From a virus (Duplodnaviria > Caudoviricetes), in the IMG/VR virus record IMGVR_UViG_3300033273_000282, positions 128,001 through 192,000 of that record: a stretch of 64,000 nt of DNA; one strand, written 5' to 3'. The notes beneath the pieces were generated by a model. That model had not been told where the DNA came from. It saw only the letters and a program-made list of their open reading frames with translations, and ran no database searches. The translations under genes were made by a program, and so were the position numbers. Positions 10,510 to 27,200 of the stretch are shown piece after piece (positions within the stretch are counted from its first letter, which is position 1; the number at the start of each line of letters is the position of its first letter).

Positions 10510-13500
10510 CTTAGAAGATCGTGAAGTTGGCTTAAATATTACTGACAAAAAATTATACGTCAATAACAATGGTACGATTGAGGAGGTGGCTAACGCCGAA
10601 CCCAATCCTGCTAGTGTTACTACGGCGATGCTTGCCACGGACATTACTAATGGTCCTGGGGCAACTTGGTTTGTCGCTCAAAATGGTACTGATGTAACCA
10701 CCCTAGGTGGTGGTGGAGCAAACGGTAAACACCCTGATACTCCATTCCTAACTGTTGCTAAGGCTTTGAGCGTTGCTCAGCCTGGTGATTCTATTGAGAT
10801 TGCTGCTGGTTCATATGTAGAGACCTTTCCTCTTACCATTCCTGATGGGGTTCATGTTAGGGGTTCTGGTATTCGCCAAACAGAAATTAAACCATCTGGC
10901 GGCACAAATGATCTGAACGCATTCGTCCTTAACGGTGATGTCACTGTTGAGGATCTTACTATTCGTGACTTTTTCTACAACAGCACGAATGACACTGGTT
11001 ATGGTTTTGTATGTGCTAATAATTGGAACTCCGAGAGAAGCGCATACATTCAAAGAGTCACTATCCTCAACAAAGGTAGTGTAACTTCTGGCTCTGACCC
11101 ATATGGTTTCCAGCAAGGTGATGCTGGACGTGGTGCTAAGCTGGATGGTTCTATTGCTAACAGCGCTGGTATTGAAGCTGCTGTTCTTTTCAACGAATGT
11201 ACGTTCATCGTACCTAATTCCGTTGGTCTGTATCTGACTAATGGTATTCGTGTAGAGTGGCTTAACGGCTTCATCTACTTTGCTGATGAAGGTATTAAAG
11301 GTGTTCAGGGTGCCACTGGTGCGTTTGGTACTGGTAGAACACGTCTTAGACTTTCTGGTACCTCTGGTACATTTGCTGCTGGTGAAGAGATCTATCAACT
11401 GGAAGACCAATTCCAGTCTGGTACTTATTCGAGATCTGGTACCACAGTTACCATTACCAGAAATGCTCACGGTCTGGTAAATGGTGACCGTGTATACGCT
11501 GACTTTATTACTGGTACTGCTACTGACAATTTCTATGTCGTCGGTGGAGTTACCACAAATACATTTACTCTAACTGATAGCGCTTCTGGATCCACAAGCG
11601 GCAACGTAACTTATAAGAAAGCCGACGCTTACGGTTTAATTACTCTTAACGATGGTAGCTACATTTACCTGAGTGGTAAGGGTGAGGGTCAATTTACAAC
11701 CACCGTTGAGGGTGGTAAGACTGCTGTACCTAATGCTGATGCTCAGGCAGATAACTCTGTCAAGAAGTTTGGTACTGGATCTCTGTTACTTGATGGTACT
11801 GGCGACTACGTTAACTATGCTTCCGAAGCTGACTTTGGTTTCGGTACTGCTAACTTCTGCGTTGAGACTTGGATCTACGCAAACGCTCTTTCTGGCACTC
11901 AGACTCTGCTTGACTTTAGAGGATCTGCTGCCGACATTGCTCCAACTCTGAGACTTAATGGTGGAACCGTTGAGTACGCTGTTGGCGGCACAACTCAGAT
12001 TTCTGGTGGCTCTCTTACCACTGGTACCTGGGTACATATCGCCGTTGCTAGATTCAACGGATCTACAAAACTCTTTGTTGCTGGTAACCAAGTAGGTTCT
12101 ACCTATACCGATACTAACAACTATGGTGCTGAGAAAGGACTGAAGATTGGTGCTCAGTATGACAACAGCACTAATTATAATGGTCACCTTGATGAAATCA
12201 GAGTAAGTAAGGGTACTGCTCGTTTCACTGGTAATTTTACTCCATCTTCTGCTGAGTACGGAACTGACATCTTTACAGTTCTGCTGCTCCACTTCAATGC
12301 CAATGATGGCGCTACAATCTTCATAGACTCTGGTTCTGCCATTAAGGACATCCGTTCTAATGGTGGCGACTCGGCTACTGGCATTGCTCTGGTTGACTAC
12401 AACCAGTTTGGCGCTGAACTTAGATCGATTGCTTCGGCAAACGTTTATGGTAATAAGGGTGTTGTTGCTGATGGCAACGGTGTAAAACTCCTTCTTACTG
12501 CTCACAACTTTGCTTATATTGGTGCTGGACAAGACTTCACCAATGATGGTTCTCTCGCTGCTCAGAGCAACGAAGTAGAAGAACTGAATGGTGGTCGTGT
12601 CTTCTACTCCTCTACTGACCAGAAAGGTGACTTCCGTGTAGGTAACGTCTTCCTGGTTGACCAGGAAACTGGTAACGTTAATTTTAGTTCTACCTCTACC
12701 TCTCAGGAAGCCGCTAGCATCACCCTGTCTGATGTTACTGGTACTACAAATATCTTCCCAGCGTATATTGAAACTGGGAACCTGCGTCTTGCTGGCAACA
12801 CGGTCTCCACTACGAGTGGTGATATTATCTTTGATCCCGCTGGTAACCAGGACGTTATATACAATGCTGAAGTCGTCTTCACTGAAGGTGTCTACTACGA
12901 TCAACCAAAATCCGCTAACTTTAAGACTGATGTCCCTGGTAACTTAGGTTTCTATGAGGGTCAGAATCAAAGACGTGGTGGATTTAATGGTTACGGTGTA
13001 CAATCTGACACCAACTTCTACTTAACCAAAGAACAAGTCACTACAGTTACTGTAGATACTGAAGGTGATGGATACACTGGCGGCGCGGCAACAATTGATG
13101 CCGATACTAACCCTCCAGTAGTATGTACCGCTACCCTGACACTGGATCTTCAGGACGGTGCTCTCAAGGAGATCAACGTTACCGCAGGGGGTGACAACTA
13201 TGTCTCTGATCCTACGGTTGGGTTTAGTGCTCCACAAGATGCTGGTGGATCTACTCCTTCTGTTTCTGCTGTTCTTTTCAGCTATGGTGACGTTCAGGCA
13301 ATCACTGTAGATGATGGTGGTGCTGGTTATGCTGCTGCCCCAGGTCTTGTTATTGACGCTCCTGGTGGTATCTCTTTCGATACTGAATCGGACATTTCTG
13401 GAAATGCCATTCAGTCGGCTAACCACCCGATGCGAAATGGTGATCGCGTTGTTTATAGTCAGAATCAAGGTGCCGAAAATATCGGTCTTACCGATGGCAC

Positions 13501-16500
13501 AACATACTTTGTTGTTAACGCTGTTAACGACTCGATTGGTGCTGGTGTAAGTTTCCAACTTTCTGCTACCCAAGGTGGCGCTGTTATTCCTCTGACTGCC
13601 TCTGCTTCTGGTAGTGGAGAGTCTCAAGCAATCAATGGTGTACAAGCCACCGCAACTTGTACTTTGTCGGGTGATGCTATTGCTAGCGTTACCATCACCG
13701 AACCTGGATCTTTGTATGACAGAGGTGCTGGTGTTTCTGTCCAAGAAGATGGATCGCAGTCTCCAACAACCGCTGCTACTCTGACAGTTTATATTGGGTC
13801 TCCTCTCTCTGGATTTATCATCAATAGCAGAGGTAGTGGATATAATGCTGCTCCAACAGTAAGCTTTACCAATGCTGCCGTTGATACTTATGGTGCTGGT
13901 GCTGCTGCTACAACTACCATTGGATTCCCACTCGCCCAAGAACCTGCTGGTCTAACTGTAACTAACGCAGGTGCTGGTTATGCCTTTGCTCCTCAGTATA
14001 AACTGAGTGGTGGCAATCCTGTTACAGAAGCAGTTCTGTCACCAACCCTCGATAAGAAGAAAGGTAATATCAGTTCAGTTGGTATCACTGGTTTTGGTGT
14101 TGGATATTCGTCTGCTCCTACCGTAACATTCTATGGTGGCGCTGGTGACGGAGCCAGACTCACTGTTAATGTTCAATCCTTAGATGGTACCATCACTAAT
14201 GGTGGTACTGGATACGTTGCTGGTAAGTACCAGAGTGTAGAACTTGAATATGTTTCTGGTGGTAGTGGTGCCCCTGCTAGCAATGCTACCGCAGACTTCA
14301 CTGTCGCTGGTTGGACTGGTAACGTCACCAATGCTGGTAGTGGTTATATTGACGGTCAGTATGACGGTCACGTTATGTACAACGTGCCTGCTGCTACTTA
14401 TACCGTAACGGTTATTACCAACCCTGGAGCTGCGCCACCAGATAACGTATATGTTATCAATGGTACTACCCAAGCTTCTCTTAACTTTGTTGAGGGTAAT
14501 ACTTATCGCTTTGATCAGTCTGATTCTTCCAACAGTGGTCATCCACTTCTCGCTGGTAGAGAAGATGGTGGAACCCTTTCTACTGATATTCTTGCCGTTA
14601 GTTATGGTACTCCTGGTGACGCAGGTGCCTTCACTGACATTATCGTAAAGCCAGGTACTGCTGGCGAAGTCCTTGATTATATCTGTAGCAACCATTCCAA
14701 CATGGGTGGCAGCGTTACCATTGGTACTGGTGCTGCTGGTAACTATGGTACTGGTCTTTCGGCAAATGTGACCGTCTCAGGCGGACAGATTACTGCTATT
14801 GAGTCTGCCGCTCAAGGTACTGACTACGCTGTTGGTGATACAGTTTCTGTCAATCCATATGCCATGGATACCAGTGGCGCTGGTAGTGGCTTTTTGTGGA
14901 CTCTTGCTGCTAATGACACAACTATTAGTGTCGTAGACAACATCAGTTTGACTGGTGGTCCATACGAAGTTGGCATGATTCTGTCGGTTGACGTACAGAA
15001 TGTCGGCGGCTCTGGTTCTAACTTTACCTATACTGTATCTAAAGCAGGTTTTGTAAAAGATGTTGACGTAGTTCAGGGTAGTGAAGGTTATGGATACACC
15101 GCAGGTGAAATTCTCTATCCAAGAATTGACCCAACCACAACAGGCAATGCTTTCCAACTCACTGTAGGTAGCACAACTACAACACCCGTTTGGGAATTTA
15201 CTCACGATGGTAGCATTGTAAACTCAGCATTTAATGTTGCTGGTACTAAGGACCCAACTTATGACCCAGGTACTCTGAGTCTCGGTTCTGGTGTTCCTAA
15301 GATTGTAATGGAGACCGAGTTTGGTAACATTACAACCGACGGTAACCTCACTGTTAAGGGCAATCTTACTCTTGGCGATGATGCTGCTGTTGACACAATT
15401 ACAGTTGCTGCTTCTACAACTGCTACTGGTGATACTACTCAGACTGGTGATTTCTCCCTGACAGGAGATATGACCATCGATGGTATCTTTACTCAGTCTG
15501 GTGGTGCTTCCTTCCTTGAGGAATTAACTGGTACCATTGCTGATGGTACTGCCGCTGCTCCTTCTCTGGCTCTTAACACCAGTCCCACCACTGGTTTGTT
15601 CTGGGCAGACACTGACATCATTGGAATTTCTAATGCTGGTGTTGAGACTGGCAGAATTGGTCCTGCTGCTTATGCCGTTGGAACTAGATTCCAAGTTGGT
15701 TCTAGTTCCATAACCGCATCTCCTCTCCTCGATGCTAACCCAGCAACTAACCTTGTAAGAATTGGTAGTTCTGCTAGTGGTCTTAGTATCAGTAGCACTG
15801 GACTCATTGAAGGTAATGGTACCGATGCTAATATTGGTATTACACTTCAACCAAAAGGTACAGGCAACGTTACTGTTGTTGGTGGTACTGATAAAGACTT
15901 TGTTCTGAACGATGGTACTTCTCTCGAACTGTTCAAGGTTGATTTAGATAGTGGTGACGCTAATCTTAAGGGTGGTCTGACTCTTAACAGCAGACTGGAG
16001 ATTAAAGATTACACACTCACTAACCAGTCTCTCGCTACTGCGTCCTTTGGCGAAGTCGTTTCGTTTGATACCAGTGGTACAGCAACTCTGTTTACCGATG
16101 GTAGTTTCACTAACGTCAACATTACCGCAACTGGTACTGGAAAAGGTACTGGTGGTCAGGTAGACGTTACTGTTGTCGGCGGTACTATCACTACCGTTGT
16201 TAAAGCCATTTCTGGATCTGCTGGTAGAGACTATGTTCTCGGGGATACAATTACAATTGACCCCGCTATTATCGGTACTGATCCTGCCCAGACAATCACC
16301 ATCACCGATGTTTCTGGTGCTGGTATTGACCTGAAACCACAGGCTCGTAAGAACGTTAGAATTAACGGTACAGGTACATTTGTCGTTCCCGTTGGTGGAA
16401 CAAATGATAGACCTGTCGCTGACGATCTCTACGTTGGTGGCATCAGATATAACACAACTACCTCTCAGTTTGAAGGATATAACGGCATTGACTTTGTATC

Positions 16501-17626
16501 TCTGGGTGGTGTTCGTGACGTTGACCAAGATACCTACATCCTTACTGAGGTAAGTCCTGGATCTGACGAGGATACCTTCGAGTTCTACAACGCTGGTTTT
16601 AACAGCCTGAGCATTGATGTTAATACCATCACGCTTAAGACTGCCAGAACAATGGACGTTGAGGGTACACTAACCCTTAATGGAACAACAGGTTTGGATA
16701 CGCTGGATGTTCAGCGTAAGTCTACTTCTATTGTCAAAGTAAGAACAACCAAGGATCTGGAGATCACTGGTGGTTTCTATCTCAAGAACCAGTTGGCTGC
16801 TGGTACCATTGCTAGCTTTGATGATGGTACTCTGGGTGCCTCTCCTGGATCCTTCAACAGCGCAGGTAATGTATATACTCCATCTCAAACATTTAGTGCT
16901 GTTGCTGGTGTATCTGAGTTTGCTGGATCTGGATCCACATTCGATGTTGTAACTAACGCTAGTGGTGGCATTACTAGCATCAGCATTGTTAGTGGCGGTT
17001 TTGTTTATGAGGTTGGTGAAATCATCACCATCCCAGGTGGTTTGCTTGGTGGTGGCGTTGGTTCTGATGTTACCTTCACTGTTGCTAGCATCAGCAACGC
17101 TGACGTTGCTCACGGTAAAGTTAGTGCTCTCCAGAGTGAACTTCGCTTTAACCTGAACGGCGACAAGCAATTCCTCAGCCTTGATTCTAATCTTACAGAA
17201 GCTCGACTTAAAGTCAACAGAGACTATGCCACTGGTGGGCAGAACTATCTGACAGTTCTGGACTCCACAGCAAAATTTGTTGAACTCAATGATGCCAGAG
17301 TGGAGGGTGGTGAGATTACCTCCTTCTCCACAACCGTAACTATCACCCAGTTTGAGAAGACTCAGTATAAGGGTGCTAAGACTTTGATCACTCTTGAGAG
17401 TGATGATGGTAAGGTACACATGTTTGAAGTAACAACCATCTGTGCCGCTAGTGGGACTGTGGCTCACGCTACCGTCACAAACTCCATCACATCCGACAAT
17501 GATTTGATGGATGCTTCAGTATCGGTTGCTGGCAACAACGTCCAGATTTCCTTGGCAAAATCGTCGCAGGCAACCTCTTCTTCGACCTTTACAGGTAGAT
17601 ATACAACTACCAAGGTCAAGGTATAA
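10448..17626 (+). CDS. Giant tail-fibre-like protein (2392 aa): beta-helix, LamG domain, GxGY..P repeats, cupredoxin-like domain
   Basis: Fibre N-terminus MATRIKLKSS..VP...L..E.GLN; PFLTVAKAL..G.Y.E beta-helix start; LamG motifs FCVETWIY, WVHIAVAR, GHLDEIRVSKG (about 11762-12300); IRYNTTTSQFEGY motif. Confidence 0.8.
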   Translation: MATRIKLKSSVTASQVPTTSDLEDREVGLNITDKKLYVNNNGTIEEVANAEPNPASVTTAMLATDITNGPGATWFVAQNGTDVTTLGGGGANGKHPDTPFLTVAKALSVAQPGDSIEIAAGSYVETFPLTIPDGVHVRGSGIRQTEIKPSGGTNDLNAFVLNGDVTVEDLTIRDFFYNSTNDTGYGFVCANNWNSERSAYIQRVTILNKGSVTSGSDPYGFQQGDAGRGAKLDGSIANSAGIEAAVLFNECTFIVPNSVGLYLTNGIRVEWLNGFIYFADEGIKGVQGATGAFGTGRTRLRLSGTSGTFAAGEEIYQLEDQFQSGTYSRSGTTVTITRNAHGLVNGDRVYADFITGTATDNFYVVGGVTTNTFTLTDSASGSTSGNVTYKKADAYGLITLNDGSYIYLSGKGEGQFTTTVEGGKTAVPNADAQADNSVKKFGTGSLLLDGTGDYVNYASEADFGFGTANFCVETWIYANALSGTQTLLDFRGSAADIAPTLRLNGGTVEYAVGGTTQISGGSLTTGTWVHIAVARFNGSTKLFVAGNQVGSTYTDTNNYGAEKGLKIGAQYDNSTNYNGHLDEIRVSKGTARFTGNFTPSSAEYGTDIFTVLLLHFNANDGATIFIDSGSAIKDIRSNGGDSATGIALVDYNQFGAELRSIASANVYGNKGVVADGNGVKLLLTAHNFAYIGAGQDFTNDGSLAAQSNEVEELNGGRVFYSSTDQKGDFRVGNVFLVDQETGNVNFSSTSTSQEAASITLSDVTGTTNIFPAYIETGNLRLAGNTVSTTSGDIIFDPAGNQDVIYNAEVVFTEGVYYDQPKSANFKTDVPGNLGFYEGQNQRRGGFNGYGVQSDTNFYLTKEQVTTVTVDTEGDGYTGGAATIDADTNPPVVCTATLTLDLQDGALKEINVTAGGDNYVSDPTVGFSAPQDAGGSTPSVSAVLFSYGDVQAITVDDGGAGYAAAPGLVIDAPGGISFDTESDISGNAIQSANHPMRNGDRVVYSQNQGAENIGLTDGTTYFVVNAVNDSIGAGVSFQLSATQGGAVIPLTASASGSGESQAINGVQATATCTLSGDAIASVTITEPGSLYDRGAGVSVQEDGSQSPTTAATLTVYIGSPLSGFIINSRGSGYNAAPTVSFTNAAVDTYGAGAAATTTIGFPLAQEPAGLTVTNAGAGYAFAPQYKLSGGNPVTEAVLSPTLDKKKGNISSVGITGFGVGYSSAPTVTFYGGAGDGARLTVNVQSLDGTITNGGTGYVAGKYQSVELEYVSGGSGAPASNATADFTVAGWTGNVTNAGSGYIDGQYDGHVMYNVPAATYTVTVITNPGAAPPDNVYVINGTTQASLNFVEGNTYRFDQSDSSNSGHPLLAGREDGGTLSTDILAVSYGTPGDAGAFTDIIVKPGTAGEVLDYICSNHSNMGGSVTIGTGAAGNYGTGLSANVTVSGGQITAIESAAQGTDYAVGDTVSVNPYAMDTSGAGSGFLWTLAANDTTISVVDNISLTGGPYEVGMILSVDVQNVGGSGSNFTYTVSKAGFVKDVDVVQGSEGYGYTAGEILYPRIDPTTTGNAFQLTVGSTTTTPVWEFTHDGSIVNSAFNVAGTKDPTYDPGTLSLGSGVPKIVMETEFGNITTDGNLTVKGNLTLGDDAAVDTITVAASTTATGDTTQTGDFSLTGDMTIDGIFTQSGGASFLEELTGTIADGTAAAPSLALNTSPTTGLFWADTDIIGISNAGVETGRIGPAAYAVGTRFQVGSSSITASPLLDANPATNLVRIGSSASGLSISSTGLIEGNGTDANIGITLQPKGTGNVTVVGGTDKDFVLNDGTSLELFKVDLDSGDANLKGGLTLNSRLEIKDYTLTNQSLATASFGEVVSFDTSGTATLFTDGSFTNVNITATGTGKGTGGQVDVTVVGGTITTVVKAISGSAGRDYVLGDTITIDPAIIGTDPAQTITITDVSGAGIDLKPQARKNVRINGTGTFVVPVGGTNDRPVADDLYVGGIRYNTTTSQFEGYNGIDFVSLGGVRDVDQDTYILTEVSPGSDEDTFEFYNAGFNSLSIDVNTITLKTARTMDVEGTLTLNGTTGLDTLDVQRKSTSIVKVRTTKDLEITGGFYLKNQLAAGTIASFDDGTLGASPGSFNSAGNVYTPSQTFSAVAGVSEFAGSGSTFDVVTNASGGITSISIVSGGFVYEVGEIITIPGGLLGGGVGSDVTFTVASISNADVAHGKVSALQSELRFNLNGDKQFLSLDSNLTEARLKVNRDYATGGQNYLTVLDSTAKFVELNDARVEGGEITSFSTTVTITQFEKTQYKGAKTLITLESDDGKVHMFEVTTICAASGTVAHATVTNSITSDNDLMDASVSVAGNNVQISLAKSSQATSSSTFTGRYTTTKVKV

Positions 17627-17649: not shown

Positions 17650-18186
17650 ATGGCGATTAAGAACTTTTCATCGGTAGGGGGGTTTGCCGTAGGCTCAACT
17701 GAGGTGCTCAACACCGAGTTTGAACTTAAAAATATCTCAGCCATCCACATGGTTAGTGATAATTTTAGCGATGCTACAAATGACTTGTACATTGCTAAAA
17801 GGACAACCGACCCCTCGAATACAGTTCTTCGTTTGAGCCTTGATGGTAGCACTAACATTGATACCAACACGCCAGCTTTGGGACACAATAGTGTGGCGTT
17901 TATTAAGTCTAAAATCTTTGGGCAAGAGCAAAATGACAACACCTATATCCTTGCGGGTATAGATGAGTCAGTGGTTACGGTTGATGCTAGTGGGGTCCCA
18001 ACACTTCAAGCAACTTATAAAACTGTTATTCACGAGCATCTGCCTGGTACGGAAACCTGGAGTTTTACTCCAGTAGCATTCCAAATTGGTGCTGCTGCTT
18101 ACTTCAGTTATGACGTTGAGACGGTAACTAATACCTCTACTGTAAAATGGCTTGCGATGATTGAAATCACTAATGTCACAACATAA
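17650..18186 (+). CDS. Hypothetical virion-associated protein (178 aa)
   Basis: Beta-rich ORF between two giant fibres, behind a late promoter. Confidence 0.65.
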   Translation: MAIKNFSSVGGFAVGSTEVLNTEFELKNISAIHMVSDNFSDATNDLYIAKRTTDPSNTVLRLSLDGSTNIDTNTPALGHNSVAFIKSKIFGQEQNDNTYILAGIDESVVTVDASGVPTLQATYKTVIHEHLPGTETWSFTPVAFQIGAAAYFSYDVETVTNTSTVKWLAMIEITNVTT

Positions 18187-18206: not shown

Positions 18207-21200
18207 ATGAGCTTAAGCCTTAATTCTTCACAGCAAAGACTTGAGGGTAGCGGTCTAGTCCCCCAGGGTCCCTGGACTTCCGCTACTTATGGTAGAGCTA
18301 ATGGTATCGTCACTGTTACTTCCGTTGCTCACAGATTAAACGATGAAGAAAGAATCTATATCAAGTTTGGCGAAGACCAACTTTTGAGAACGATTCCTGC
18401 TGGTCAGCATGAAATCAATGTAGTTGACGACGATACATTTACCATTACTGGTACTGGGCAGAACTTTATTGAGGCTGCTACTGCTTGTTCTTATCGTCTG
18501 GTAAGATCCTTTGTACTTAACGCCACCGACTCCATGGCGTTCACCGTTGGCACTGGAGCCAACGAAGATGATGCTGTCTTCATTAACAAAGGTCCTACTG
18601 GAAACATCCGTGTTGGTATTAACAACACTAACCCTGAGTTTGACCTCGACGTTGAAGGTCAGATCAGAACCACTCGATCCATCATTTCTGATACAGCGCA
18701 AATCAGAAACCTGGATGTTACCAACGAGTTTGTAACCAAGGGTCTGGATCTGCGTGGTCCTAACCTTATTAACTTTGAGGAAACTGATCCTACCGCTAGT
18801 GACTTCGGTACGATCTACTATCCTACTGCTGACAACCCTCCACGTCAGACACAGAATAATAGAATTGCTACAACCAAGTTCGTATATGACGTTGCTACTG
18901 CCGATAACGGCGGTCGTGTATACGTATCTTCGGTCCCTGGTATTGGTGATGACGAGAACGATGGTCGTTCCGCCGCTAAGCCAGTTCGTACTATTAAGAA
19001 GGCAGCACAGATTGCCTACTCCCTCCAGCAGGACACTGAAGTACCTGAGTACGTGTCCATCATTGTATCGGGTGGTGACTATGTTGAAGACAACCCAATC
19101 TCGCTGCCTTACAACTGCTCGCTGATTGGTGATAACCTTCGTCGTGTTATCCTGCGTCCTCTGAACCAGGATCGCCACATGATCAAGGCGTCCAACGAGA
19201 CGTATGCTGCTGGCGTTGTTTTCAGAGATCACCTCGACAACACTGGAACTCCAGACTGGACCTGGAAGTACGCTTACGTATTTGACGACAAACAGCGTCT
19301 GTACTACGAGCCTGAAATTGCTCCATTCTCCTTCTCTCCTGGTCTTGAGAACCAAGGTCGTAACCTTTTTGCTATCACCTTTGAGAACCATACTGGTGAT
19401 AACACAACCCTTCTCGTCGGTTATGCCGTTGAGGGTGGTTCTTCGTCCTCTAGAGGTATCATTGAATCTGTAGTATTCACTGGTCCCAATGCTTCTCCAT
19501 ATTCTTCTGGTACCATTCAGGTATTGATGAGTGACGATCAGTCAACATTCCTGTTGGCTGAAAAACTATACTATGCTGACATCTACGCCAACATCGTTAA
19601 GACAGGTGCTTCCCCATCTGACTCTCTTGACGTTGCTGACCGTGAATCTCAGAGACCAGAAACTGAGGTTATCAAGCACCAGAGATATCAGCACGTTATT
19701 AGTTCTGAGACTGAGACTCTGCGCTTTGATGGTACAGATCTTAATAATGTCATTGATACTACTGACAACAGAATTACAATCCCACTCCACAGATTGTATA
19801 CTGGTGCCAAGGTAATCTATAAAGTTCAGAATGAAGACGGCGCTCCCGTTGAGGGTCTGACTGATAACACCACTTACTTTGTTCGTGTTATCAATGACAA
19901 TACTATCGAGTTGTATGATACTTGGCTGGATGCTACAAGTCTCCAGACTACAACTGGTATTAGAAACCTGAGTGATGAAGGTAGTGGCGATGAGCACACC
20001 CTGTTCACATGTAGGGTTTCGGTCAACGACGACACTATCTACTTCCCCAACCATGGTCTGTTTACGGGCAATGGTATTTACTACCGTGCTTCTAAGGCAG
20101 GCGGTATTGGTGGTCTTAATGACAACTCTCTGATCTTTGTCTATAGAGTAGACAGCCATCACTTTAAGCTTGCTAATACTCAGGCAGATGCTACCAATAA
20201 GAACATTTCTGGTGAAGATGCTCCAGTAATTCTGCCTCTGACTTCTGAGGGTATTGGTTATCAGCGCTTTGAGAAAGCAATCAACGTTGTTGACATCTCT
20301 AGCGTAACTACTGACGTTGCTACTCAGCAAGCATACAACGGTATCATCTATGAAGTCACTGCGGCTTCTAGAGTTATTGAAGGTATTAACTTCGTTGGTC
20401 ATGACTATGAAGTCGGTCAAGAAGTACAAATCTATGGTCTTCCTTACACCGCACTGAGTTTCGGTAGCGGTGCTAGTGCTACCTATACTCAAACAGCAAA
20501 CCTGATTACAGTTACGGTCTCCAATACAGACCCAACTGTAATGAACGTTCTTTGGCCAAACCTCAAGACCCTTGGTCCTGTTGGTGGTAAGGGCGTTGGT
20601 GTTCGCATGGTCTTTGACGATGCTGGTAACACTGGACATATCAATAAGTCTTTCCACATCGCCACGTATCAAGACGGTACACTGGCTCAAACCCAGTCCG
20701 ATTTTAATGCTTATCTGGGCAGCCCATCTAACCTGGGCGCTGGTGTTGCTAGATATAATTCTTCTACTAATGAGGTTTACTTCCTCCTTAGAGCAGTAGA
20801 CTCTGCTACCAGAAGTGGTACAGTAACTGTCTTCGACAACCTTGGCGACTTCAATGGTCGTAAGTACGTTACTCATCGTATTGAGCGTGCTGACGGCTAC
20901 TCTGTTAAGTTCGTAACTAGAGGTTCTTGCTCTAGAATTGCTACGGCTCTTGACCCATCTGGTGACCAGCAGGTTTGTTCTGCTACCAACTATGCTTTGA
21001 TGTCGCTGAGGAACTCTCCTTATGCGTTCGATAAAGTAGAGTTTGGCGCTAACGTCCAAGAATCTGCTAAGCAAAGAGACGCTGCTGAGACAATCAACAA
21101 TAACCTCAGCTTCATTGCTGAGGAATCTTACGCTTATGTTAAGTCCCAGTACAACGCTGGTACTAACACAAGTTTCTCCAGAACTGGTACATACACCTGC

Positions 21201-24200
21201 TCTGGCAATGTAATGACTGTTACTTGCCCTAGAGGTTCTGCTGTATTTGCCAAGAACTCCTACGCTTTTAACTTCAGCGGTGCCACTACAGACGGTGCTT
21301 ACATCGTTGATGACTGTGAGGATCACAGAAGATTCACAATCATCCTCCCTGCTGCTAGCACGGATTCTGGTACAGTAACTATCACCATCCCTGCTCCTTG
21401 GCAGACACCAAACTCTGTTCCTCCCGTTGACAGAGCTGCTGATGGCACATCTTTGATTCTGGCTAACAAGCAACTGATTGCTCAAGAAGCAGTTGCTCGT
21501 ATGTTGATTGCTAACCCAACCTTCAACATTCCAACTGGCAACCAGGCTTGTATTGATGATGCTGTTGACTTCCTGGAAGCAATGGCATACAACCTTGCTT
21601 ACGGTGGTAACGATCAGGTCTATGATGCCGCTAAGTATTATGTTGATGGCGCTCACGTTGTAGGTGAGGAAGATGAATCTGTAGAGGTCTTCAACAACGC
21701 CAGAGACATTGCTATTCAAGTAATGCGTAACCAGACGGTTACCATCCAAGGTAGCCATGGTCTGACTCAGATTAAAGACTTTACCATCTCCCCCGACTCT
21801 GCTAACTCTGGAGTCGGTGATCGCTTCAGTGATGCTCGCAACCTGATCTACAAGAACAAAGAGTTCATTGCTGAGATCGCTGTCGGCAGATTGAATGCCA
21901 ACCTCGGATATGAGGTTGTAGATTCCAGACACATGGATGCCCACGATCTGCTGATCGCTAACCTGGACTTCATTGCTGAAGAAGCATATGCTGTTCAGTT
22001 GGCTGCCGATCCTAATCTGACCACCCCAACAGGTGATCCTCAGGATTGTATCGATGACGTTAGAGACATCCTTACCGCAGTTGCTTTCAACGTACAGCAT
22101 GGTAGCAACAACCAAGTCTGGGATGCTGCTAACCTGTATGTTGGTACACCTCACATTCAAGGTGAAGAAGCTAACTCTATTGCGATTATCAACCACGCAA
22201 GAGACATTGCTAAACTGGTAATCACCAACAGAACTCACACTAAAGTTGGTAGTCACGAATACACCCAGTCCTTCGATACCACCATCACCCACGATCAATC
22301 TGCTTCTGGTGGCGCTTACAGTTCTGCTGATTGCGCTAACGTCCAGAGCACCATTGATTCTCTGATGCTGATCGTTACCGATGCGATCACCAACCAGACT
22401 CTGAATGGTGTTACTAAGACTACCCCTGCTACCTTCTCCGTTCCAACTGGCAACCAGTCCTGTATTGATGACATCATCAATATTCTGGAAGTTGCTTCCT
22501 GGAACTTGGCTATGGGTGGCAACGACTTCACCTATGATGCTGCTAACCTGTACATCACAGGCAACCACGTCGTTGGCGAAGAGAACCACTCCATCTATGC
22601 TTTCCGTCAGGCAAGAGATATTGCCATCGAGTGTTTCCAGAATGAAGATGTAACTACTGGTGGATACACCCAACGCACTCAATTTAAGGATCTTACGATC
22701 ACTCAGGACACAGGTCTTCCAATCTGTGCTAACGTAATCGCATCACTTACTGCGTTGATGAACGTTGTTGAAGTTGCTATTGATACCCAGTCTCTGTCTT
22801 CTTTTACTAGAACGGATTCTTACGCAAACAGATGTTCTGACACTGCTGCTGCCATCACCTCTCTGACTGGTGTTGTTACAGGTGCTATTGGTAGCACTGG
22901 TAACCCTGGTAGCCTGAGTGGTGTTGTTAGAACATATCCAGTTAGCGACCAACAGTGTATTGATGACGTATATCACGTACTCCGTGCTTGGATGTACGAC
23001 ATGCGTTATGGCGGTAACTCCAAGACTATTGAAGCCGCACAGAAGTACATCCAAGGTACTAACGTTAACTACGTTACTAATGAAGTACCTCAAACTCGTG
23101 AGGTATATACAAGAGCCGAGCAACTTGCTACTCTTGCTATTCGTAACCAACTCCCTCAGGGTGAGTTCTCGCAGATTGCTCCATTCCACAACGCATCTAC
23201 AACAGTTGATAGCAACCAACCCGAGTGTGGTGCTTCTATCACCTTCCTGAATGGTCTTGCTACCATTCTGGATGACGCGCTGTCAACTGCTGGAACATCA
23301 CTTTCCAATGTTACTCTCACCGAGCCAAGCACACTCCTGAAAGATGACAGTGGACTTAAGATTGTCCCAATGTTGGCTGACAACCTTGACCTACCTGTTA
23401 TTGAGGCATCGCCTTACATCCAGAACGCATCGCTGATTTCGTTCCTGGGTGCGTCTGGTGCTGAGATCGATGGTGCTAAGGTTGCTTCTCCCAACGTTCC
23501 CCGTCCTGGTGTATTCCTCGACGGTAACGGTGTTGAGCGTTCTACTTTCCCACCTCAGGGTAAGTCGATGGTTGCCAACGCCTTCACGATCATCTCGGTC
23601 AACGGCGGTGTTGGATATAACATTCTGAACGATGGTTACACCCAGCTGGTGTCGGTCTTTGTCATCTTCGGTGGAGATGGTGTTATTGTTCAGTCTGGTG
23701 GTTATGCCTCACTGACTAACTCTGCTTCTAACTTTGGTACCCGTGCTCTGAAGGCAACTGGTTACCGTTCTGAGGCTTATGAGTTTGACGTTGGTACCGT
23801 AACCCAGATCAGAAACCAAACAGACAACAACGGTGCTCAAACTGGTCGTCAGATCATTGAGGTCGGTGGTCCTATCACCAACTTCCCTGTTGAAGACTAT
23901 ATCATCAAATTTGAAGGATTTAGAAATTCTGATCCTGCTAAGGAATACTTCGTCCTTGGTACGGAACAACTGTCTGGTTCGATCGGTACTCAGATTACCG
24001 CTAACGTTACTACTAACGACGGTCTGGGTCTTGATCTGATCAGAGAGTCCGATAGCACAAACGTGTCGTTCCAGAACGGCAACCTGGATCTGCTGAACAA
24101 TGCGGTCATCAAATTCCACAGACCTTCGATCTGTAACTCCTCCTCCCACACCTGGGAATATGTTGGTGCTGGTGATACCTATAACGCTCTGCCTCAAAAC

Positions 24201-27200
24201 GGTGGTGTTGGTATTCCTGCTAACGAAGCAGTTGAAGAAGCATACGGTCAGGTCTACACCTCTGGTACTAACGAATTCGGTGACTTCAAGGTTGGTGACT
24301 TTGTTACCATCTTCAACAGAACTGGTAGTATCAGCTTCGTTGGTACTGTTAGTATCTCCGAACTGTCTTCGATTAAGATCGTTGGTGGCTCTATCACCAT
24401 TACTGGATTCTCCGACAGTGATGAACTGGGTGGTGCTTTTGCTTCTGACTCCTTGCTGCCTACACAGGCTGCTGTTAAGGACTACATCACCAACAAACTT
24501 GGTCCATACCTGAACCAGCCATACTCAACCAACGCTGTTCCTAGCGCTCTGGTTCAGTTGACCACTAGCGGTAAGATCAACATTGAACAGATCCCCGCTC
24601 TGCGTCCTTTCAATATCACATCTGTTGCCTCTACTGCCGAGCGTCTTGCTATTGAAGATGCCAGCGCTGGTGACATCGCTATTGAAACAACTTCGACTTC
24701 TTATCAAGTTGCTCCTTCTAGCGTTGATATTGTCAATGAAGTTATCACCATTCCTTCTCACGGTCTTACCACTGGCGATATTCTGACCTACTTCCAAGGT
24801 ACCTCCAACATTGGTAACTTGGCTGATGGTGCTAACTACTATGTAATTCAACATGCTATTGGTGCTAACACCACCGACTACATCAAACTCGCTACTTCCT
24901 TGGCTGATGCTCAGGCAGGCACTGCGAGAAACCTGACTTCTCAAGGTACTGGCACCCACGTCTTCCGTACTGAAGGTGCTGCTATTTCCTACATTCTGGA
25001 AAATGACCTTGATACAATGTATGCTGCGTTTGTTCCTAACAGCGCATACGTATTCAGCAACAACTCTCTGATTATTGGTTCTCAGTCTACTGCTCAGGTA
25101 ATCGTCACCAACTACGAAGGTGGTGTCGTCAGAGACATTCTGATCGATGATCCTGGTTCTGGTTACGCTACTGCTCCTGGTATTAGCATCAGTGCTCCAC
25201 CTAGCGGTACTCAAGCAACTGCGAGTTGTACTATCACTAATGGTCAGGTAGCGTCGATCACCATTACCAACCCTGGTTCTGGTTACTACACAGCACCTAC
25301 AGTTTCTTTCACAGGTGCTCCTACAGGCGGTACAACTGCTACTGCTCAGGGCAATGCTGCTAGAATTGAAGCCAGACTTTATGTTGATCTTGCTAATAAT
25401 ATCAAGATCTCTGACATTGACTTCATTCTTGACGAAGCAAACGTCACCGTAGCCAGCGGCGTATACACCCACGATACCTTCGATATCACAATTACTGAAA
25501 CCAATCACGGATTTAGCCAAGGTGATACGGTATATCTGGAATTCACATCTGGTTCTTCGACCAGTGGTTTCTACTCTGTTGATAGTATTGTCAACGCAAA
25601 CGAGTACACGGTTGTTGCTCAGACAGCACTCCTTACCTCTGGTAACTACAACAGAAAGAGAATCGTTGACATCACCAGAGTTGTTAACACCTCTGCTTCT
25701 AACGCTCAGAACTGGACTCAGTTGTCCTCCACTAACATCGATGCTTCTAACATCGTTGCTGGTGTTATTGACCCACAGCGTTTGGCTGACACTGGTGTTG
25801 CTAACTCCTTCACCTTCCTTAGAGGTGATGCTTCCTTCCAGTATGCTGTTCAGTCGATTAAATTTACTACAGACGATGTTCTGGTTGGTGAATCTTCGAT
25901 TCAGGATAACAGCTACATTGAGAAAGTTAATATCGTTAACCCTGGTTCTGGTTATACCGTTGGTACATACCAGAACATCCCAATGGTCGGCGGTAACGTT
26001 CAGATCTCTGAGCAAGGCGTTGCTCGTGCTACCTATACCGTCGCTGACGTTGTAACTGGTGGTATTGTAGATAGCGTAAGTAACCTGTCGTTTACCCCAG
26101 GATCTTACACCCCCAGCAGCACATTTGACGTTTCTGTTTCTACCACCGATGGCGCTGGTCTCGGTGCTCAGATCAGATTCGTAACTGATGTCAACGGTGA
26201 TATCGCAGTTGATATCATTCTCGATGGTGGATCTGGATACAATGGTGGCGATACTCTTGAATTTGACGGTCCACTCTTCGGTGGTACTGTACAGCAGGGC
26301 GTAAGCGTAACTGTATCCACGTTGACTTCCAGCACAACCCTTGGTGCTATCACTAGCGTTTCGGTTGTTACTCCTGGTACTGGATACACCTCTGACTTTA
26401 CACTCACAGTTCCTAGCGAACTGGGTCAACCAGTTCAGGCAGGTAGTCTGACTGCTGTTAAGGGTACATTGTCTCGTTACTACGGTAACGCTTCGTTTGA
26501 CCTTCTCAAGGCAAACAACCTTACCCCAACAACCCTCCAGGCTGGCGGTTCGGTCTTCGGTAACTATGGTATCGCCAAGTTCCGTAAGCCAGCTGCTGAG
26601 CAAGCGCTCGCTAACCAAGACCTCGGTGGTTTCGTTATTACCACTGCTGGTGAAGTTACCATTGACCAGGGTCCTGGTTCTAAACTGAACGCTGATAAAC
26701 TGGATGGTAACGAAGGTTCCTTCTACCAGAACGCTACCAACCTTATTGAGGGTATTCTTGATCCTCAGCGCCTGGCAAACACCACCTACAACATCTCGAT
26801 CTCTGGTACAGCAGACTACGCAAACACTCTGTTCTGCGAAACAACTGCTCCATCTTCCGCTAACGCTTCCCTCGTCAGCGCTGCTAACGTAGGTACCCAG
26901 CTTGCCCTGAGATCCAACTCCGTAACTGGTATTCCTACCGATGCTGGTGGAACCAGAGCGGGTATCATGACGTTCCGTCGTTCCGCAACTGGTAACTCTG
27001 TTGCTCAGTTGGCTTTCTCTGCCACCGACAACCTGTACCTGAGAGGCAACTCTGACACTGGTACTGTATATGGTCAGTGGGCGAAGATCTGGTCTTCTGA
27101 GAACGATGGTGCTCCCGATCCTAACGATCCTCGTCGTGGCACTCTGCCTGGTCCAGATGCCGACTACCTCGATGGTAAGCAAGGTCTCTGGTATCAAGGT

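What the first reader, a model, noticed from the sequence alone, without database searches (positions are those of the whole stretch)
21072..23295. Four phycobiliprotein-like (globin-fold) domains inside a giant virion protein
Seen: four repeats with Cys at 1115, 1281, 1419 and 1584: ACIDDAVDFLEAMAYNLAYGG, DCIDDVRDILTAVAFNVQHGS, SCIDDIINILEVASWNLAMGG, QCIDDVYHVLRAWMYDMRYGG. Established (quoted from memory): the bilin-binding helix of phycocyanin alpha reads KC84ARD87IGYYL92R93MVTY97CLVAG102G103. The repeats keep the same gap-free spacing (C84, D87, L92, Y97, GG; repeat 4 also R93). The preceding helix ILANKQLIAQEAVARML matches allophycocyanin beta ISANAAAIVKEAVAKSL, and ACIDD matches ACIRD. 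Inference: a phage structural protein carries domains homologous to host antenna proteins. These could bind bilins (a pigmented, light-responsive or photoprotected virion), mimic or dock on phycobilisome components, or be a repurposed scaffold. Caveat: Arg86, which normally pairs with a bilin propionate, is Asp in all four copies.
Basis: partly seen in the sequence, partly recalled or inferred. Interest (0 to 1): 0.92.

Follow-up and report, generated by a model that had tools for sequence, protein, structure and literature searches.

The report
Phycobiliprotein-like domains in cyanophage fibre
A giant baseplate-fibre protein of a marine cyanobacterial virus holds four domains that are true relatives of the host's light-harvesting pigment proteins and keep the pigment-attachment residues, which makes it testable whether such virions carry pigment, why these phages encode a pigment lyase, and why some need light to attach to cells.

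Summary
The 3633-aa ORF (window 18207-29108) carries four C-I-D-D helices at Cys1115, 1281, 1419 and 1584.

Homology to phycobiliproteins (PBPs) is supported by independent tests:
- Pfam PF00502 scores above its cut-off on the cassette.
- A profile of 124 phage copies finds only PBPs in the PDB (best E 3e-6).
- A template-free AlphaFold model (pLDDT 93) matches PBP beta chains (Z 16-17).

The family holds about 1,850 copies in 243 giant proteins. Its two most conserved columns are the PBP bilin-attachment Cys84 (98%) and bilin-coordinating Asp87 (99%). Arg86 is Arg in 67% and Asp in 28%; this window has the Asp variant.

Every named phage that carries the domain is a cyanophage. Among 20 cyanomyovirus genomes it co-occurs exactly with the phage lyase gene cpeT (14 with both, 6 with neither). 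It is present in S-PM2, P-HM1 and P-HM2, whose adsorption needs light, and absent from P-SSM2 and P-SSP7, which adsorb in the dark.

Bilin binding is inferred, not shown (about 0.4). A pigment-free scaffold is about equally likely. The copies appear nested inside one another.

I found no paper describing this. First readers of this scan noted similar repeats in two other genomes.

The parts
18207..29108 (+). Giant virion fibre-like protein, 3633 aa (P0001). It lies in the baseplate module, syntenic with P-HM2 PHM2_096 'tail fiber protein'.
   Evidence: ORF list and translation. PHROG tail-fibre and virion-structural families: phrog_5342 E=0, plus phrog_4527, phrog_18802 and phrog_701. Same gene order as P-HM2 and Syn1: gp7, then a small virion protein, then the giant protein.
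21024..23327 (+). Phycobiliprotein-like cassette, aa 940-1707: four E-helix cores, four B-type helices and four H-type helices.
   Evidence: Family-profile matches. PF00502 at 30.4 bits. Four-domain AlphaFold model with pLDDT 79.7.
21024..21221 (+). Orphan B-type helix B0 (aa about 954-982, motif R-D-A). Proposed first helix of domain 4.
   Evidence: Profile match to positions 17-60 only, E 4e-6. The token string of the 79%-identical homologue P0153 is 'B BE B BEH EH H EH'. The assignment to domain 4 is inferred.
21387..21815 (+). Domain 1, helices B-E-F'-G (aa 1061-1203). Cys1115 in A-C-I-D-D; D39-like Asp in A-A-D-G.
   Evidence: Profile positions 15-149, E 3e-54, with no H helix following. 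Best Pfam PF00502 stretch. A PBP chain (9o61_B) aligns 141 residues over model residues 2..497, i.e. this part plus the helix at aa 1544-1561.
21798..21920 (+). Orphan B-type helix B2 (aa 1198-1238, motif S-D-A). Proposed first helix of domain 3.
   Evidence: Profile positions 16-48 only, E 5e-8. Helix 141-168 of the four-domain model. The pairing with domain 3 is inferred from the family grammar.
21900..22433 (+). Domain 2, the only contiguous copy (aa 1232-1409). Cys1281 in D-C-I-D-D; D39-like Asp in M-D-A; Cys155-like Cys1376 in D-C-A-N-V.
   Evidence: Profile positions 17-185, E 5e-59. AlphaFold model of aa 1228-1400: pLDDT 93.1, pTM 0.89. Foldseek and VIA matches to PBP beta chains: TM 0.6-0.67, Z 16-17, rmsd 2.1-2.5 A over 138-146 residues.
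22404..22826 (+). Domain 3, helices E-F'-G-H (aa 1400-1540). Cys1419 in S-C-I-D-D; Cys1507 in I-C-A-N-V.
   Evidence: Profile positions 45-187, E 2e-44, with no B helix of its own.
22827..22910 (+). Orphan H-type helix H3 (aa about 1542-1565; Cys1543 in R-C-S-D-T). Proposed closing helix of domain 1.
   Evidence: Helix 480-497 of the four-domain model. It is included in the 9o61_B alignment that spans model residues 2..497.
22911..23327 (+). Domain 4, helices E-F'-G-H (aa 1569-1707). Cys1584 in Q-C-I-D-D; Cys1674 in E-C-G-A-S.
   Evidence: Profile match E 5e-39. pLDDT is lower (39-80) in a model that lacked B0.
10448..17626 (+). Context: gp7-like baseplate wedge protein, 2392 aa, immediately upstream.
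   Evidence: phrog_32294 and phrog_13163 'baseplate wedge subunit', E=0 and 1e-235.
17650..18186 (+). Context: small virion structural protein, 178 aa, between gp7 and the giant protein.
   Evidence: phrog_5449 at E 2e-41. It occupies the same position as P-HM2 PHM2_095 and Syn1_100, T4-GC 512.

Best explanation
SHOWN. The window is the structural module of a roughly 200-kb T4-like cyanomyovirus. Its 3633-aa baseplate-associated fibre protein contains a 770-aa cassette of four globin-fold domains. These domains are divergent homologues of phycobiliproteins, closest to beta subunits. They lack the N-terminal X-Y hairpin, have a 7-residue deletion before the Cys helix, and have a long G-H loop. 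The same domain family fills giant virion proteins of most marine cyanomyoviruses. Its two most conserved residues are the equivalents of the bilin-attachment Cys84 and the bilin-coordinating Asp87.

INFERRED (about 0.4). The domains still use this site to hold a linear tetrapyrrole. The bilin would be thioether-linked to the E-helix Cys. In copies that have the H-helix Cys plus the B-helix Asp, a second bilin would sit at the beta-155-like site. The bilin would be taken from the infected cell's pool during late assembly, and the phage's own T-type lyase CpeT is the candidate enzyme for the beta-155-like site.

FURTHER INFERRED (about 0.2). The pigmented domains on the baseplate fibres act as a light sensor that gates adsorption.

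In this window all four copies carry Asp in place of Arg86. That Asp is invariant in the orthologous group, so the site is under selection here too, but it may bind differently or bind something else.
For: Homology
- PF00502 scores 30.4 bits against a cut-off of 22.2 on aa 1060-1700.
- 50 of 124 family copies hit PF00502 individually, and many homologues carry a precomputed PF00502 hit.
- A profile of 124 copies against the PDB returns only PBPs among the 60 hits shown, best E 3e-6.
- A template-free model (pLDDT 93.1) gives PBP-type chains for all top 50 Foldseek hits, and PBP/ApcE for all top 8 VIA hits, Z 16.1-12.1. Within the four-domain model the match is Z 17.2 at rmsd 2.5 A.

Site conservation (1,848 non-identical profile-matched segments, about 1,400 with the Cys helix, from 243 giant proteins)
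- Asp87 equivalent 99% and Cys84 equivalent 98%: the two most conserved columns.
- Arg86: 67% Arg, 28% Asp. Lys83: 44%.
- Cys155 equivalent: 73% Cys. Asp39 equivalent: 59% Asp.
- The E-helix Cys stays Cys in 237 copies that lack the H-helix Cys, so it is not kept as that disulfide partner.
- P-SSM4 has lost the Cys in all three of its copies while the domain is still recognised by the profile, so the Cys does not look essential for the fold.
- C-x-D-D is invariant in 99 orthologous regions.

Distribution
- All 353 phage records with a match are Synechococcus or Prochlorococcus phages. Named BFVD matches are cyanophages only.
- The one hit in 185,579 species genomes is a MAG contig 100% identical to phage S-CREM1.

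Link to cpeT
- The own genome has cpeT but no heme oxygenase and no bilin reductase.
- Across 20 cyanomyovirus genomes, 14 have both cpeT and the domain, 6 have neither, and none are mixed. Fisher p is 2.6e-5, uncorrected for phylogeny.
- In Syn1 and S-PM2, cpeT lies 0.7-1.4 kb upstream of a domain-bearing giant gene.

Light
- P-HM1 and P-HM2 do not adsorb in the dark, and S-PM2 adsorption is light-dependent and independent of host photosynthesis. P-SSM2 and P-SSP7 do adsorb in the dark (PMC6628666).
- The first three carry the domain and the last two do not.

Virion location
- T4-GC969 (S-SM1 SSM1_102, three copies) was found in virions by mass spectrometry (PMC3037559). Syn9 gp101 is annotated 'virion structural protein, putative fiber'.

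Open questions this would address
- The roles of phage cpeT, pebS and pcyA are called unresolved or a mystery (PMC3037559).
Against: - No chromophore has been observed. Everything about bilin rests on residue conservation and co-occurrence.
- The pocket is remodelled. The 7 residues before Cys84 are deleted; from my own knowledge this segment includes Arg77/Arg78, which bind bilin propionates in beta subunits. There is also no X-Y hairpin, and a 37-residue G-H loop may fill the pocket.
- In this window Arg86 is Asp in 4 of 4 copies, and it is Asp in 8 of the genome's 12 copies. That should repel a propionate.
- Other near-invariant residues have no known PBP counterpart: Tyr 98%, G-G-N, and Asp/Asn at Cys+14. 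The conserved face could serve another ligand.
- P-SSM2 and S-SSM7 carry pebS and ho1 but no domain. Cluster-C phages carry an S-type lyase but no domain (PMC10665884). So phage bilin genes are not tied to the domain in general.
- The six genomes with neither cpeT nor the domain form only about two clades, so the co-occurrence rests on few independent events.
- The Asp39/Cys155 association is strong in raw counts but collapses on a tree: 8 and 18 changes, and the independent-pairs test has no power.
- The light-adsorption match rests on five phages.
- I know of no report of coloured cyanophage virions.
- Complex prediction with CpeT gave no verdict.
Confidence: 0.4

Rival explanations
1. Pigment-free scaffold. 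The domain descends from a captured host phycobiliprotein gene but now serves only as a compact, stable helical building block, a bead or knob, in giant fibres. It is multiplied by tandem duplication and recursive insertion. The conserved Cys and Asp have a structural or assembly role unrelated to bilins.
For: - The copies sit inside very large beta-rich fibre proteins at 2 to more than 30 copies per protein, like a structural repeat.
- The nested grammar suggests selection for a rigid composite body.
- The pocket-forming segment before Cys84 is deleted and the X-Y hairpin is lost.
- Arg86 is replaced by Asp in 28% of copies, including all four here.
- P-SSM4 tolerates loss of the Cys in all its copies.
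- No pigment has ever been reported in cyanophage virions (my knowledge).
Against: - It does not explain why the two most conserved columns of about 1,400 copies are exactly the PBP chromophore-attachment Cys and the chromophore-coordinating Asp. In PBPs these contact the bilin rather than the fold (established knowledge).
- A lone Cys kept at 98% in an extracellular protein, without a partner Cys, is unusual for a purely structural residue.
- It does not explain the exact co-occurrence with cpeT or the restriction to cyanophages.
Confidence: 0.4
2. Same pocket, different chemistry. The conserved face of helix E (Cys, Asp at +3, Asp/Asn at +14, G-G-N, Tyr) binds another ligand or a metal. Alternatively the Cys makes an intermolecular covalent link, such as a disulfide between fibre subunits or to a host surface component, rather than holding a bilin.
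For: - Family-specific invariant residues have no PBP counterpart: Tyr 98%, Asn 89%, and Asp/Asn 100% at Cys+14.
- The C-x-D-D variant is invariant in this protein's orthologues. It makes an acidic pair better suited to a cation than to a propionate.
- Other members of this fold class bind heme or non-covalent bilins (globin sensors, photocobilins).
Against: - The majority motif K-C-x-R-D matches the PBP alpha-84 site residue for residue (and my knowledge of the PBP motif).
- No ligand other than a bilin accounts for the cpeT co-occurrence.
Confidence: 0.13
3. Host mimic or decoy. The domains imitate apo-phycobiliproteins in order to engage host phycobilisome partners (linkers, lyases, NblA or proteases) inside the cell during infection.
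For: Real homology to PBP beta subunits with both lyase-target cysteines retained. Cyanophages are known to manipulate phycobilisomes, for example through viral NblA (PMC12695635, listed).
Against: - Domain-bearing orthologues are virion proteins encoded in the baseplate module. Baseplate fibres stay outside the cell.
- The X-Y hairpin and the trimer-forming surfaces used in phycobilisome assembly are absent.
- Prochlorococcus hosts of P-HM2 have no phycobilisome (PMC2984593).
Confidence: 0.05
4. Chance or convergent resemblance of an unrelated helical repeat to phycobiliproteins.
For: Single copies score below the Pfam cut-off (15.9 and 13.3 bits, and two copies with no hit). Sequence identity to PBPs is only 14-21%. 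AlphaFold DB cluster matches are weak, E 0.1 or worse.
Against: - A profile search of 177,635 PDB sequences returns only PBPs among the hits shown, E down to 3e-6.
- The match is collinear over the B, E, G and H helices and includes both Cys sites.
- PBPs rank above all other globin-fold proteins in an all-against-representatives structure search.
Confidence: 0.02

Closest known systems
Phycobiliprotein beta subunits (CpcB, CpeB, cryptophyte PE/PC beta; Pfam PF00502)
   Same: Globin-like fold with collinear B, E, F', G and H helices. Cys at the 84 site, Asp87, the G-G/G-D turn after helix E, a second Cys at the start of helix H (beta-155 site) and an Asp-Ala in helix B (beta-39). Best sequence and fold matches.
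   Different: - No X-Y hairpin.
- 7-residue deletion before Cys84.
- 37-residue G-H loop.
- Arg86 is Asp in this window.
- Embedded, and apparently nested, in a 3633-aa virion fibre protein rather than being a free 17-20 kDa subunit.
- No evidence of alpha-beta pairing, trimer discs or a chromophore.
ApcE (core-membrane linker) phycobiliprotein domain with its PB-loop
   Same: A PBP-fold domain that is part of a very large multidomain protein and carries an insertion in the loop between helices B and E, the same loop used for most nesting in the phage family. It is a strong fold match: 4xxi_A Z 14.0 at rmsd 2.0 A, and 7eyd_19, 9wg7_N2 and 7sc7_BD at Z 12.1-12.5. From my knowledge, ApcE attaches its bilin without a lyase.
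   Different: ApcE has one PBP domain followed by linker REP domains and sits in the phycobilisome core. From my knowledge its bilin Cys is at a different position. The phage proteins insert whole further PBP-like domains, not a loop.
Bilin-binding globins outside phycobilisomes (bacterial fluorescent protein 8u0f; photocobilin globin domains 8j2y/8j2w; BBAG-type proteins of PMC10151467)
   Same: Globin or PBP-fold proteins that bind linear tetrapyrroles outside an antenna. This shows the fold can serve sensing or other roles. 8u0f_C matches at Z 16.6 and the photocobilins at Z about 10.
   Different: These are cellular proteins, single or few domains, and not virion components. No sequence-level link to the phage family was found beyond the shared superfamily.
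Cyanophage bilin genes: cpeT (T-type lyase), pebS/pcyA, ho1
   Same: Same viruses. cpeT co-occurs exactly with the domain in the 20 genomes examined. T-type lyases serve the beta-153/155 Cys (PMC10452541), a site that the phage domains retain.
   Different: These are enzymes, currently interpreted as acting on host antenna proteins. No phage-encoded substrate has been proposed in the papers I could search. pebS and ho1 also occur in phages without the domain.

Membership tests
Phycobiliprotein family (Pfam PF00502 'Phycobilisome protein') | Sequence match to the family model above the curated gathering score | tested here: inconclusive
   The cassette aa 1060-1700 scores 30.4 bits against a cut-off of 22.2, E 4.5e-7. 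The whole protein scores 22.1 bits, just under. Single copies score 15.9 and 13.3 bits, and two copies have no hit. 50 of 124 family copies match at E<=0.1, best 9e-6. The match covers profile positions about 30-98 of 155 only.
Phycobiliprotein family (Pfam PF00502 'Phycobilisome protein') | Globin-like helical fold of PBPs (helices A/B, E, F', G, H) | tested here: met
   Model with pLDDT 93.1. The top 50 Foldseek PDB hits are all PBP beta chains or the PBP-like protein 8u0f, TM 0.53-0.67. VIA-align gives Z 16.1 for 5aqd_M with 150 aligned residues, and Z 17.2 at rmsd 2.5 A over 146 residues.
Phycobiliprotein family (Pfam PF00502 'Phycobilisome protein') | N-terminal X-Y helix hairpin that forms the alpha-beta protomer | tested here: not met
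   Profile and structure alignments start at PBP residue about 21-35. The model has only two short helices before helix E. The Pfam match starts at profile position 30-36.
Phycobiliprotein family (Pfam PF00502 'Phycobilisome protein') | Cys at the position-84 bilin attachment site | tested here: met
   Present in 4 of 4 copies here and aligned to Cys84 by HMMER. It is Cys in 98% of about 1,400 family copies.
Phycobiliprotein family (Pfam PF00502 'Phycobilisome protein') | Asp87, which hydrogen-bonds the bilin pyrrole nitrogens | tested here: met
   Present in 4 of 4 copies here and in 99% of the family, where it is the most conserved column.
Phycobiliprotein family (Pfam PF00502 'Phycobilisome protein') | Arg86, the salt bridge to a bilin propionate | tested here: not met
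   Asp in all four copies here, and Asp is invariant in 99 orthologous regions. Across the family it is Arg in 67% and Asp in 28%. The own genome has Arg in 3 of 12 copies.
Phycobiliprotein family (Pfam PF00502 'Phycobilisome protein') | Beta-type second site: Cys155 at the start of helix H together with Asp39 in helix B | tested here: met
   Cys1376, 1507, 1543 and 1674 open the four H-type helices. The B-type helices carry D-A or D-G. HMMER aligns the H helix with the beta-155 segment, but weakly, at 3 bits. Across the family, Cys is 73% and Asp 59%.
Phycobiliprotein family (Pfam PF00502 'Phycobilisome protein') | Covalently bound bilin chromophore | not testable with these tools
   Needs spectroscopy, a Zn blot or mass spectrometry on virions or recombinant domains.
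Phycobiliprotein family (Pfam PF00502 'Phycobilisome protein') | Assembly into (alpha-beta)3 discs and phycobilisome rods | not testable with these tools
   The context argues against it: the domains are internal parts of a baseplate fibre protein and lack the X-Y hairpin.
Globin-coupled sensor / RsbR-type sensor globins | Best structural neighbours are heme or sensor globins; proximal His for heme | tested here: not met
   Sensor globins rank below all PBP entries: Z 10.9 or less against 12.1-16.1. No Pfam globin hit. Sequence profile hits shown are PBPs only.
T4-like cyanophage giant virion / fibre proteins (PHROG 5342, 4527, 18802, 701) | Sequence membership and position in the baseplate module | tested here: met
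   phrog_5342 E=0, phrog_4527 5.5e-99, phrog_18802 1.5e-60, phrog_701 8e-51. Synteny with P-HM2 and Syn1. Orthologous domain-bearing proteins are identified in virions.

The most novel reading that the evidence does not exclude
Virions of most marine T4-like cyanophages carry covalently bilin-bearing, phycobiliprotein-derived domains on their baseplate fibres. These domains are chromophorylated during assembly by the phage's own CpeT together with host lyases, and they act as a virion photoreceptor that gates adsorption to the host by light. This would give phage cpeT, and in bilin-poor Prochlorococcus hosts perhaps pebS, pcyA and ho1, a phage-encoded substrate. It would be the first light-sensing virus particle.
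Probability: 0.2. Interest if true: 0.97.

Novelty: new variant of a known kind. Interest (0 to 1): 0.85.

Why it matters
Two questions about marine cyanophages have stayed open for 15-20 years.

1. Why do most cyanomyoviruses carry a phycobiliprotein lyase gene (cpeT) without the rest of the host operon, and sometimes bilin-synthesis genes, even when the host has no phycobilisome? (PMC3037559, PMC2984593)
2. Why do phages such as S-PM2, P-HM1 and P-HM2 need light to adsorb, independently of host photosynthesis? (PMC6628666)

A phage-encoded, virion-located family of phycobiliprotein homologues bears on both. It keeps both bilin-attachment cysteines, it co-occurs exactly with cpeT, and it is present in the light-dependent phages and absent from the dark-adsorbing ones examined. 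That offers one concrete, cheaply testable candidate for both questions.

Even if no pigment is bound, two results stand. A host antenna protein has been captured and turned into the commonest repeat of giant cyanophage fibre proteins. And it has multiplied by apparently recursive domain-in-domain insertion. Both are unusual cases of host-gene exaptation and protein architecture.

Tried and rejected
- Complex prediction of domain 2 with the genome's own CpeT gave no verdict (score 0.31, mark 0.32). It counts neither for nor against binding.
- The search for related loci with the 124-copy alignment in genome contigs failed because no stretch was conserved enough. A single-copy query found only a mis-binned S-CREM1 phage contig.
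- A portal-protein sample of IMG/VR contigs, meant for an unbiased cpeT/domain co-occurrence test, returned almost only fragments under 25 kb, so I dropped it. 'relatives' is not available for a virus record.
- The Asp39/Cys155 co-variation looked very strong in raw and identity-clustered counts (p 1e-8 to 1e-31). A tree-based independent-pairs test showed only 8 and 18 changes and no power, so I do not use it as evidence of co-evolution.
- The formal well-formedness test of the nesting grammar was only moderately above shuffled controls (24 of 58 architectures, against about 19% expected). Profile hits miss or merge helices.
- AlphaFold DB cluster search gave only weak matches, E 0.1 or worse.
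- Jia et al. 2010 (light-dependent adsorption of nine phages) and Gasper et al. 2017 (phage CpeT) are not held. I therefore could not check which other phages adsorb independently of light. S-BM3 carries the domain, and I do not know its phenotype.
- I considered that P0024, whose capsid gene is closest to jumbo phages of heterotrophs, shows the domain outside cyanophages. Its domain region matches only cyanophages and uncultured marine viruses, so its host remains unknown.
- I considered that bilin-synthesis genes track the domain. Rejected: P-SSM2 and S-SSM7 have pebS and ho1 but no domain.

Full report
**1. What is there**

The window is the structural module of a T4-like cyanomyovirus. The record is a 200,309-bp IMG/VR virus genome, estimated complete, and the window is C1:128001-192000. 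It encodes:
- a gp7-like baseplate wedge protein (10448-17626);
- a small virion protein (17650-18186);
- the 3633-aa ORF of the finding (18207-29108);
- fibre-assembly-like proteins, a halogenase, terminase, tail sheath and portal.

The order gp7, small virion protein, giant protein is the same in P-HM2 (PHM2_094 to PHM2_096, 'tail fiber protein') and in Syn1. The giant protein matches PHROG tail-fibre and virion-structural families.

**2. The observation**

All four quoted helices are present, with Cys at aa 1115, 1281, 1419 and 1584. No other large ORF of the window has such a motif. The units are 27-43% identical to each other.

**3. Homology to phycobiliproteins: sequence**

- Pfam PF00502 is the only family hit. 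It scores 30.4 bits (E 4.5e-7; cut-off 22.2) on aa 1060-1700. Single copies fall below the cut-off.
- A full HMMER search of 1.84 billion representatives with copy 2 found 300 proteins (148 at E<=1e-10). Most are 1,000-7,000 aa with up to 15 matched stretches, plus some short fragments. The best 150 of them, together with P0001, hold 723 domain instances.
- I aligned 124 copies, all from phage-type giant proteins and with no PBP included (A2). Searched against all PDB sequences, this profile gave 135 hits. The 60 shown are all phycobiliproteins, best E 3e-6.
- The alignment covers helix A/B through helix E and, weakly, the C-terminal helix at the beta-155 Cys.
- 50 of the 124 copies hit PF00502 on their own. 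Many full-length homologues already carry a precomputed PF00502 hit.

**4. Homology to phycobiliproteins: structure**

- AlphaFold2 on A2 (no templates, first row aa 1228-1400) gave pLDDT 93.1 and pTM 0.89, with six helices.
- Foldseek against the PDB: the top 50 are all PBP beta chains or the PBP-like protein 8u0f, probability 1.00, TM 0.53-0.67.
- VIA-align against 48,161 representative chains: the top eight are PBPs or the ApcE PBP domain (Z 16.1-12.1). Globin-coupled sensors and RsbR follow at Z 10.9 or less.
- Inside a four-domain model (aa 1065-1710, pLDDT 79.7) the contiguous copy aligns to PBP beta chains at Z 17, rmsd 2.1-2.5 A, over 138-146 residues.

I regard homology as established, at about 0.95 or higher.

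The differences from PBPs are:
- no X-Y hairpin;
- a 7-residue deletion between the G-N of the B-E loop and the Cys;
- a 37-residue G-H loop with its own conserved motif.

**5. The family and its conserved site**

I collected 1,848 non-identical profile-matched segments from 243 giant proteins. About 1,400 of them contain the Cys helix.
- The most conserved column is the Asp87 equivalent (99% Asp). The second is the Cys84 equivalent (98% Cys).
- Position 86 is Arg in 67% and Asp in 28%. Position 83 is Lys in 44%. The majority motif, K-C-x-R-D, is that of the PBP alpha-84 site.
- The H-helix Cys (beta-155 equivalent) is Cys in 73%. The B-helix Asp (beta-39 equivalent) is Asp in 59%.
- The E-helix Cys is kept in 237 copies that lack the H-helix Cys, so it is not conserved as that disulfide partner.
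- Other near-invariant residues have no PBP counterpart that I know of: Tyr 98%, G-G-N, and Asp/Asn at Cys+14.

The window's C-I-D-D is a sub-lineage state. C-x-D-D is invariant in 99 orthologous regions.

The same genome has two more giant proteins with the domain, outside the window:
- a 4449-aa protein with C-A-R-D, C-I-D-D (three times), C-E-D-D and C-K-S-D;
- a 3796-aa protein with C-K-R-D and C-R-R-D.

P-SSM4 has lost the Cys in all three of its copies.

**6. Distribution**

- tblastn of aa 1070-1400 against 50,697 phage records gave 353 records, all Synechococcus or Prochlorococcus phages or 'Cyanophage'.
- A distant 21-copy protein (P0024) comes from a contig whose capsid gene resembles jumbo phages of heterotrophs. 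It again matched only cyanophages plus uncultured marine viruses.
- Named BFVD structural matches are cyanophages. The rest are uncultured phages or entries with no name at hand.
- The one hit in 185,579 prokaryote species genomes is a MAG contig 100% identical to phage S-CREM1.
- Orthologous domain-bearing proteins are virion components. T4-GC969 of S-SM1 was identified by virion proteomics (PMC3037559). Syn9 gp101 is annotated 'virion structural protein, putative fiber'.

**7. Link to cpeT**

The own genome encodes CpeT (C1:86332-86745) but no heme oxygenase and no ferredoxin-dependent bilin reductase. I then scored the 16 cyanomyoviruses of Sullivan et al. 2010.
- The domain is present in 13 and absent from P-SSM2, S-SM2 and S-SSM7.
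- cpeT is absent from the same three, which I re-tested.
- cpeT is present in Syn1, contrary to the published table. The PF00502... correction: the PF06206 hit has E 1.5e-35 at 19950-20462, 0.7 kb upstream of the domain-bearing gene Syn1_032.

Adding the own genome and three cluster-C phages (no cpeT, no domain) gives 14 with both, 6 with neither, and none mixed. Fisher p is 2.6e-5.

Caveats:
- For eight genomes the cpeT status is taken from the paper.
- The six negatives form about two clades.
- pebS and ho1 occur without the domain (P-SSM2, S-SSM7), and cluster C has an S-type lyase without the domain.

In S-PM2, cpeT (163961-164470) lies about 1.4 kb upstream of a giant domain gene.

**8. 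Link to light**

Liu et al. 2019 (PMC6628666) report:
- P-HM1 and P-HM2 do not adsorb in the dark;
- P-SSM2 adsorbs in the dark, though less than in the light;
- P-SSP7 adsorbs in the dark;
- S-PM2 adsorption is light-dependent and independent of host photosynthesis. [quoted passage not shown]

P-HM1, P-HM2 and S-PM2 carry 5-9 copies. P-SSM2 and P-SSP7 carry none. Five phages make a lead, not a test.

**9. Architecture (partly followed)**

Profile hits split into B-only, B-E(-G), E-(G)-H and H-only pieces, and their order reads like brackets.
- S-PM2: 'BEH B B B BEH EH EH EH'.
- P0034: 'B B B BEH EH EH EH B B BEH EH EH'.
- P0156: 'BE BE BE BE BE BEH H BE BEH H H H H H'.

For this protein the order is B0, B1-E1-G1, B2, complete domain 2, E3-G3-H2, H3, E4-G4-H4. 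This fits domain 2 being inserted in the B-E loop of domain 3, that pair being inserted in the G-H loop of domain 1, and all three being inserted in the B-E loop of domain 4.

One structural alignment supports the outer pairing. A PBP chain aligns 141 residues over model residues 2..497. Domain 4, modelled without B0, has the lowest confidence.

A formal well-formedness test was only moderately above shuffled controls. I could not inspect model contacts.

**10. Mechanism**

Shown: homology, fold, conservation pattern, virion context and distribution.

Inferred:
- a retained bilin site (about 0.4);
- CpeT as the lyase for the H-helix Cys (about 0.25);
- a virion light sensor (about 0.2).

The main rival is a pigment-free scaffold (about 0.4).

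Against bilin binding: the remodelled pocket, Asp at position 86 here, the lack of any report of coloured virions, and the dependence of the statistical links on few independent lineages (for the Asp39/Cys155 pair).

**11. Novelty**

Ten full-text searches and seven papers read found no description of phycobiliprotein-like domains in phage structural proteins. Automatic Pfam hits do exist in databases. First readers of this scan noted similar repeats in two other genomes and on this stretch; those notes are unchecked.

Noticed in passing
window 21024-23327; also S-PM2 NC_006820 55519-58095 (L107) and family proteins P0034, P0025, P0075, P0026, P0156: The domain pieces follow a bracket-like grammar: B^n, then one complete domain, then (E-H)^n; or (B-E)^n ... 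H^n. This implies whole domains inserted recursively into the B-E or G-H loop of another copy, apparently up to 4-8 levels deep. ApcE's PB-loop sits in the same B-E loop.
   Followed up: partly
L116 / GU071105.1 19950-20462 (Syn1): Syn1 encodes a clear CpeT homologue (PF06206, E 1.5e-35, 187-aa ORF), although the published gene table lists none. It lies 0.7 kb upstream of the giant domain-bearing gene Syn1_032. In S-PM2, cpeT is about 1.4 kb upstream of the orthologous giant gene.
   Followed up: partly
L110 (P-SSM4 AY940168 70000-76200): All three phycobiliprotein-like copies of Prochlorococcus phage P-SSM4 have lost the E-helix Cys (A-Q-L-A-R-L, Q-K-K-T-D-L, V-V-Q-N-N-L). The orthologous copies in Syn9, S-SM1 and Syn33 keep it. 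This may be relaxation in a phage of a bilin-poor host.
   Followed up: no
L117 (CAYVOK010000024.1, MAG 'uncultured Acidimicrobiaceae bacterium'): A 42-kb contig of a GTDB species-representative MAG is 100% identical over the 6.5 kb examined to Synechococcus phage S-CREM1. It is almost certainly a mis-binned phage contig.
   Followed up: yes
L104 (Logan SRR32481726 contig, P0024): A 4254-aa protein with about 21 mostly tandem, non-nested copies sits next to T4-type portal and capsid genes. Its gp23 is 70% identical to jumbo phages of heterotrophs (Phosso, CBB, Serratia BF). The host is unknown, and this could be the domain's only occurrence outside classical cyanomyoviruses.
   Followed up: partly
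window 31959-33527 and neighbours 33520-40031: A tryptophan-halogenase-like gene (phrog_2928, E 6e-133) and a run of tightly packed ORFs lie directly downstream of the fibre and fibre-assembly genes. Other first-reader notes call this a possible virion-tailoring operon. I did not examine it.
   Followed up: no
G000:C1:114041-127387 and C1:35022-46409 (outside the window): Two further giant proteins of the same phage (4449 and 3796 aa) carry six and two Cys-helix copies. These include canonical C-x-R-D sites that would be better first targets for a bilin-attachment assay than the window's C-I-D-D copies.
   Followed up: partly
family consensus K-C-x-R-D: Trypsin would cut the canonical site into a C-x-R tripeptide. 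Standard tryptic virion proteomics could therefore not have seen a bilin adduct at this Cys, even if one is present.
   Followed up: no
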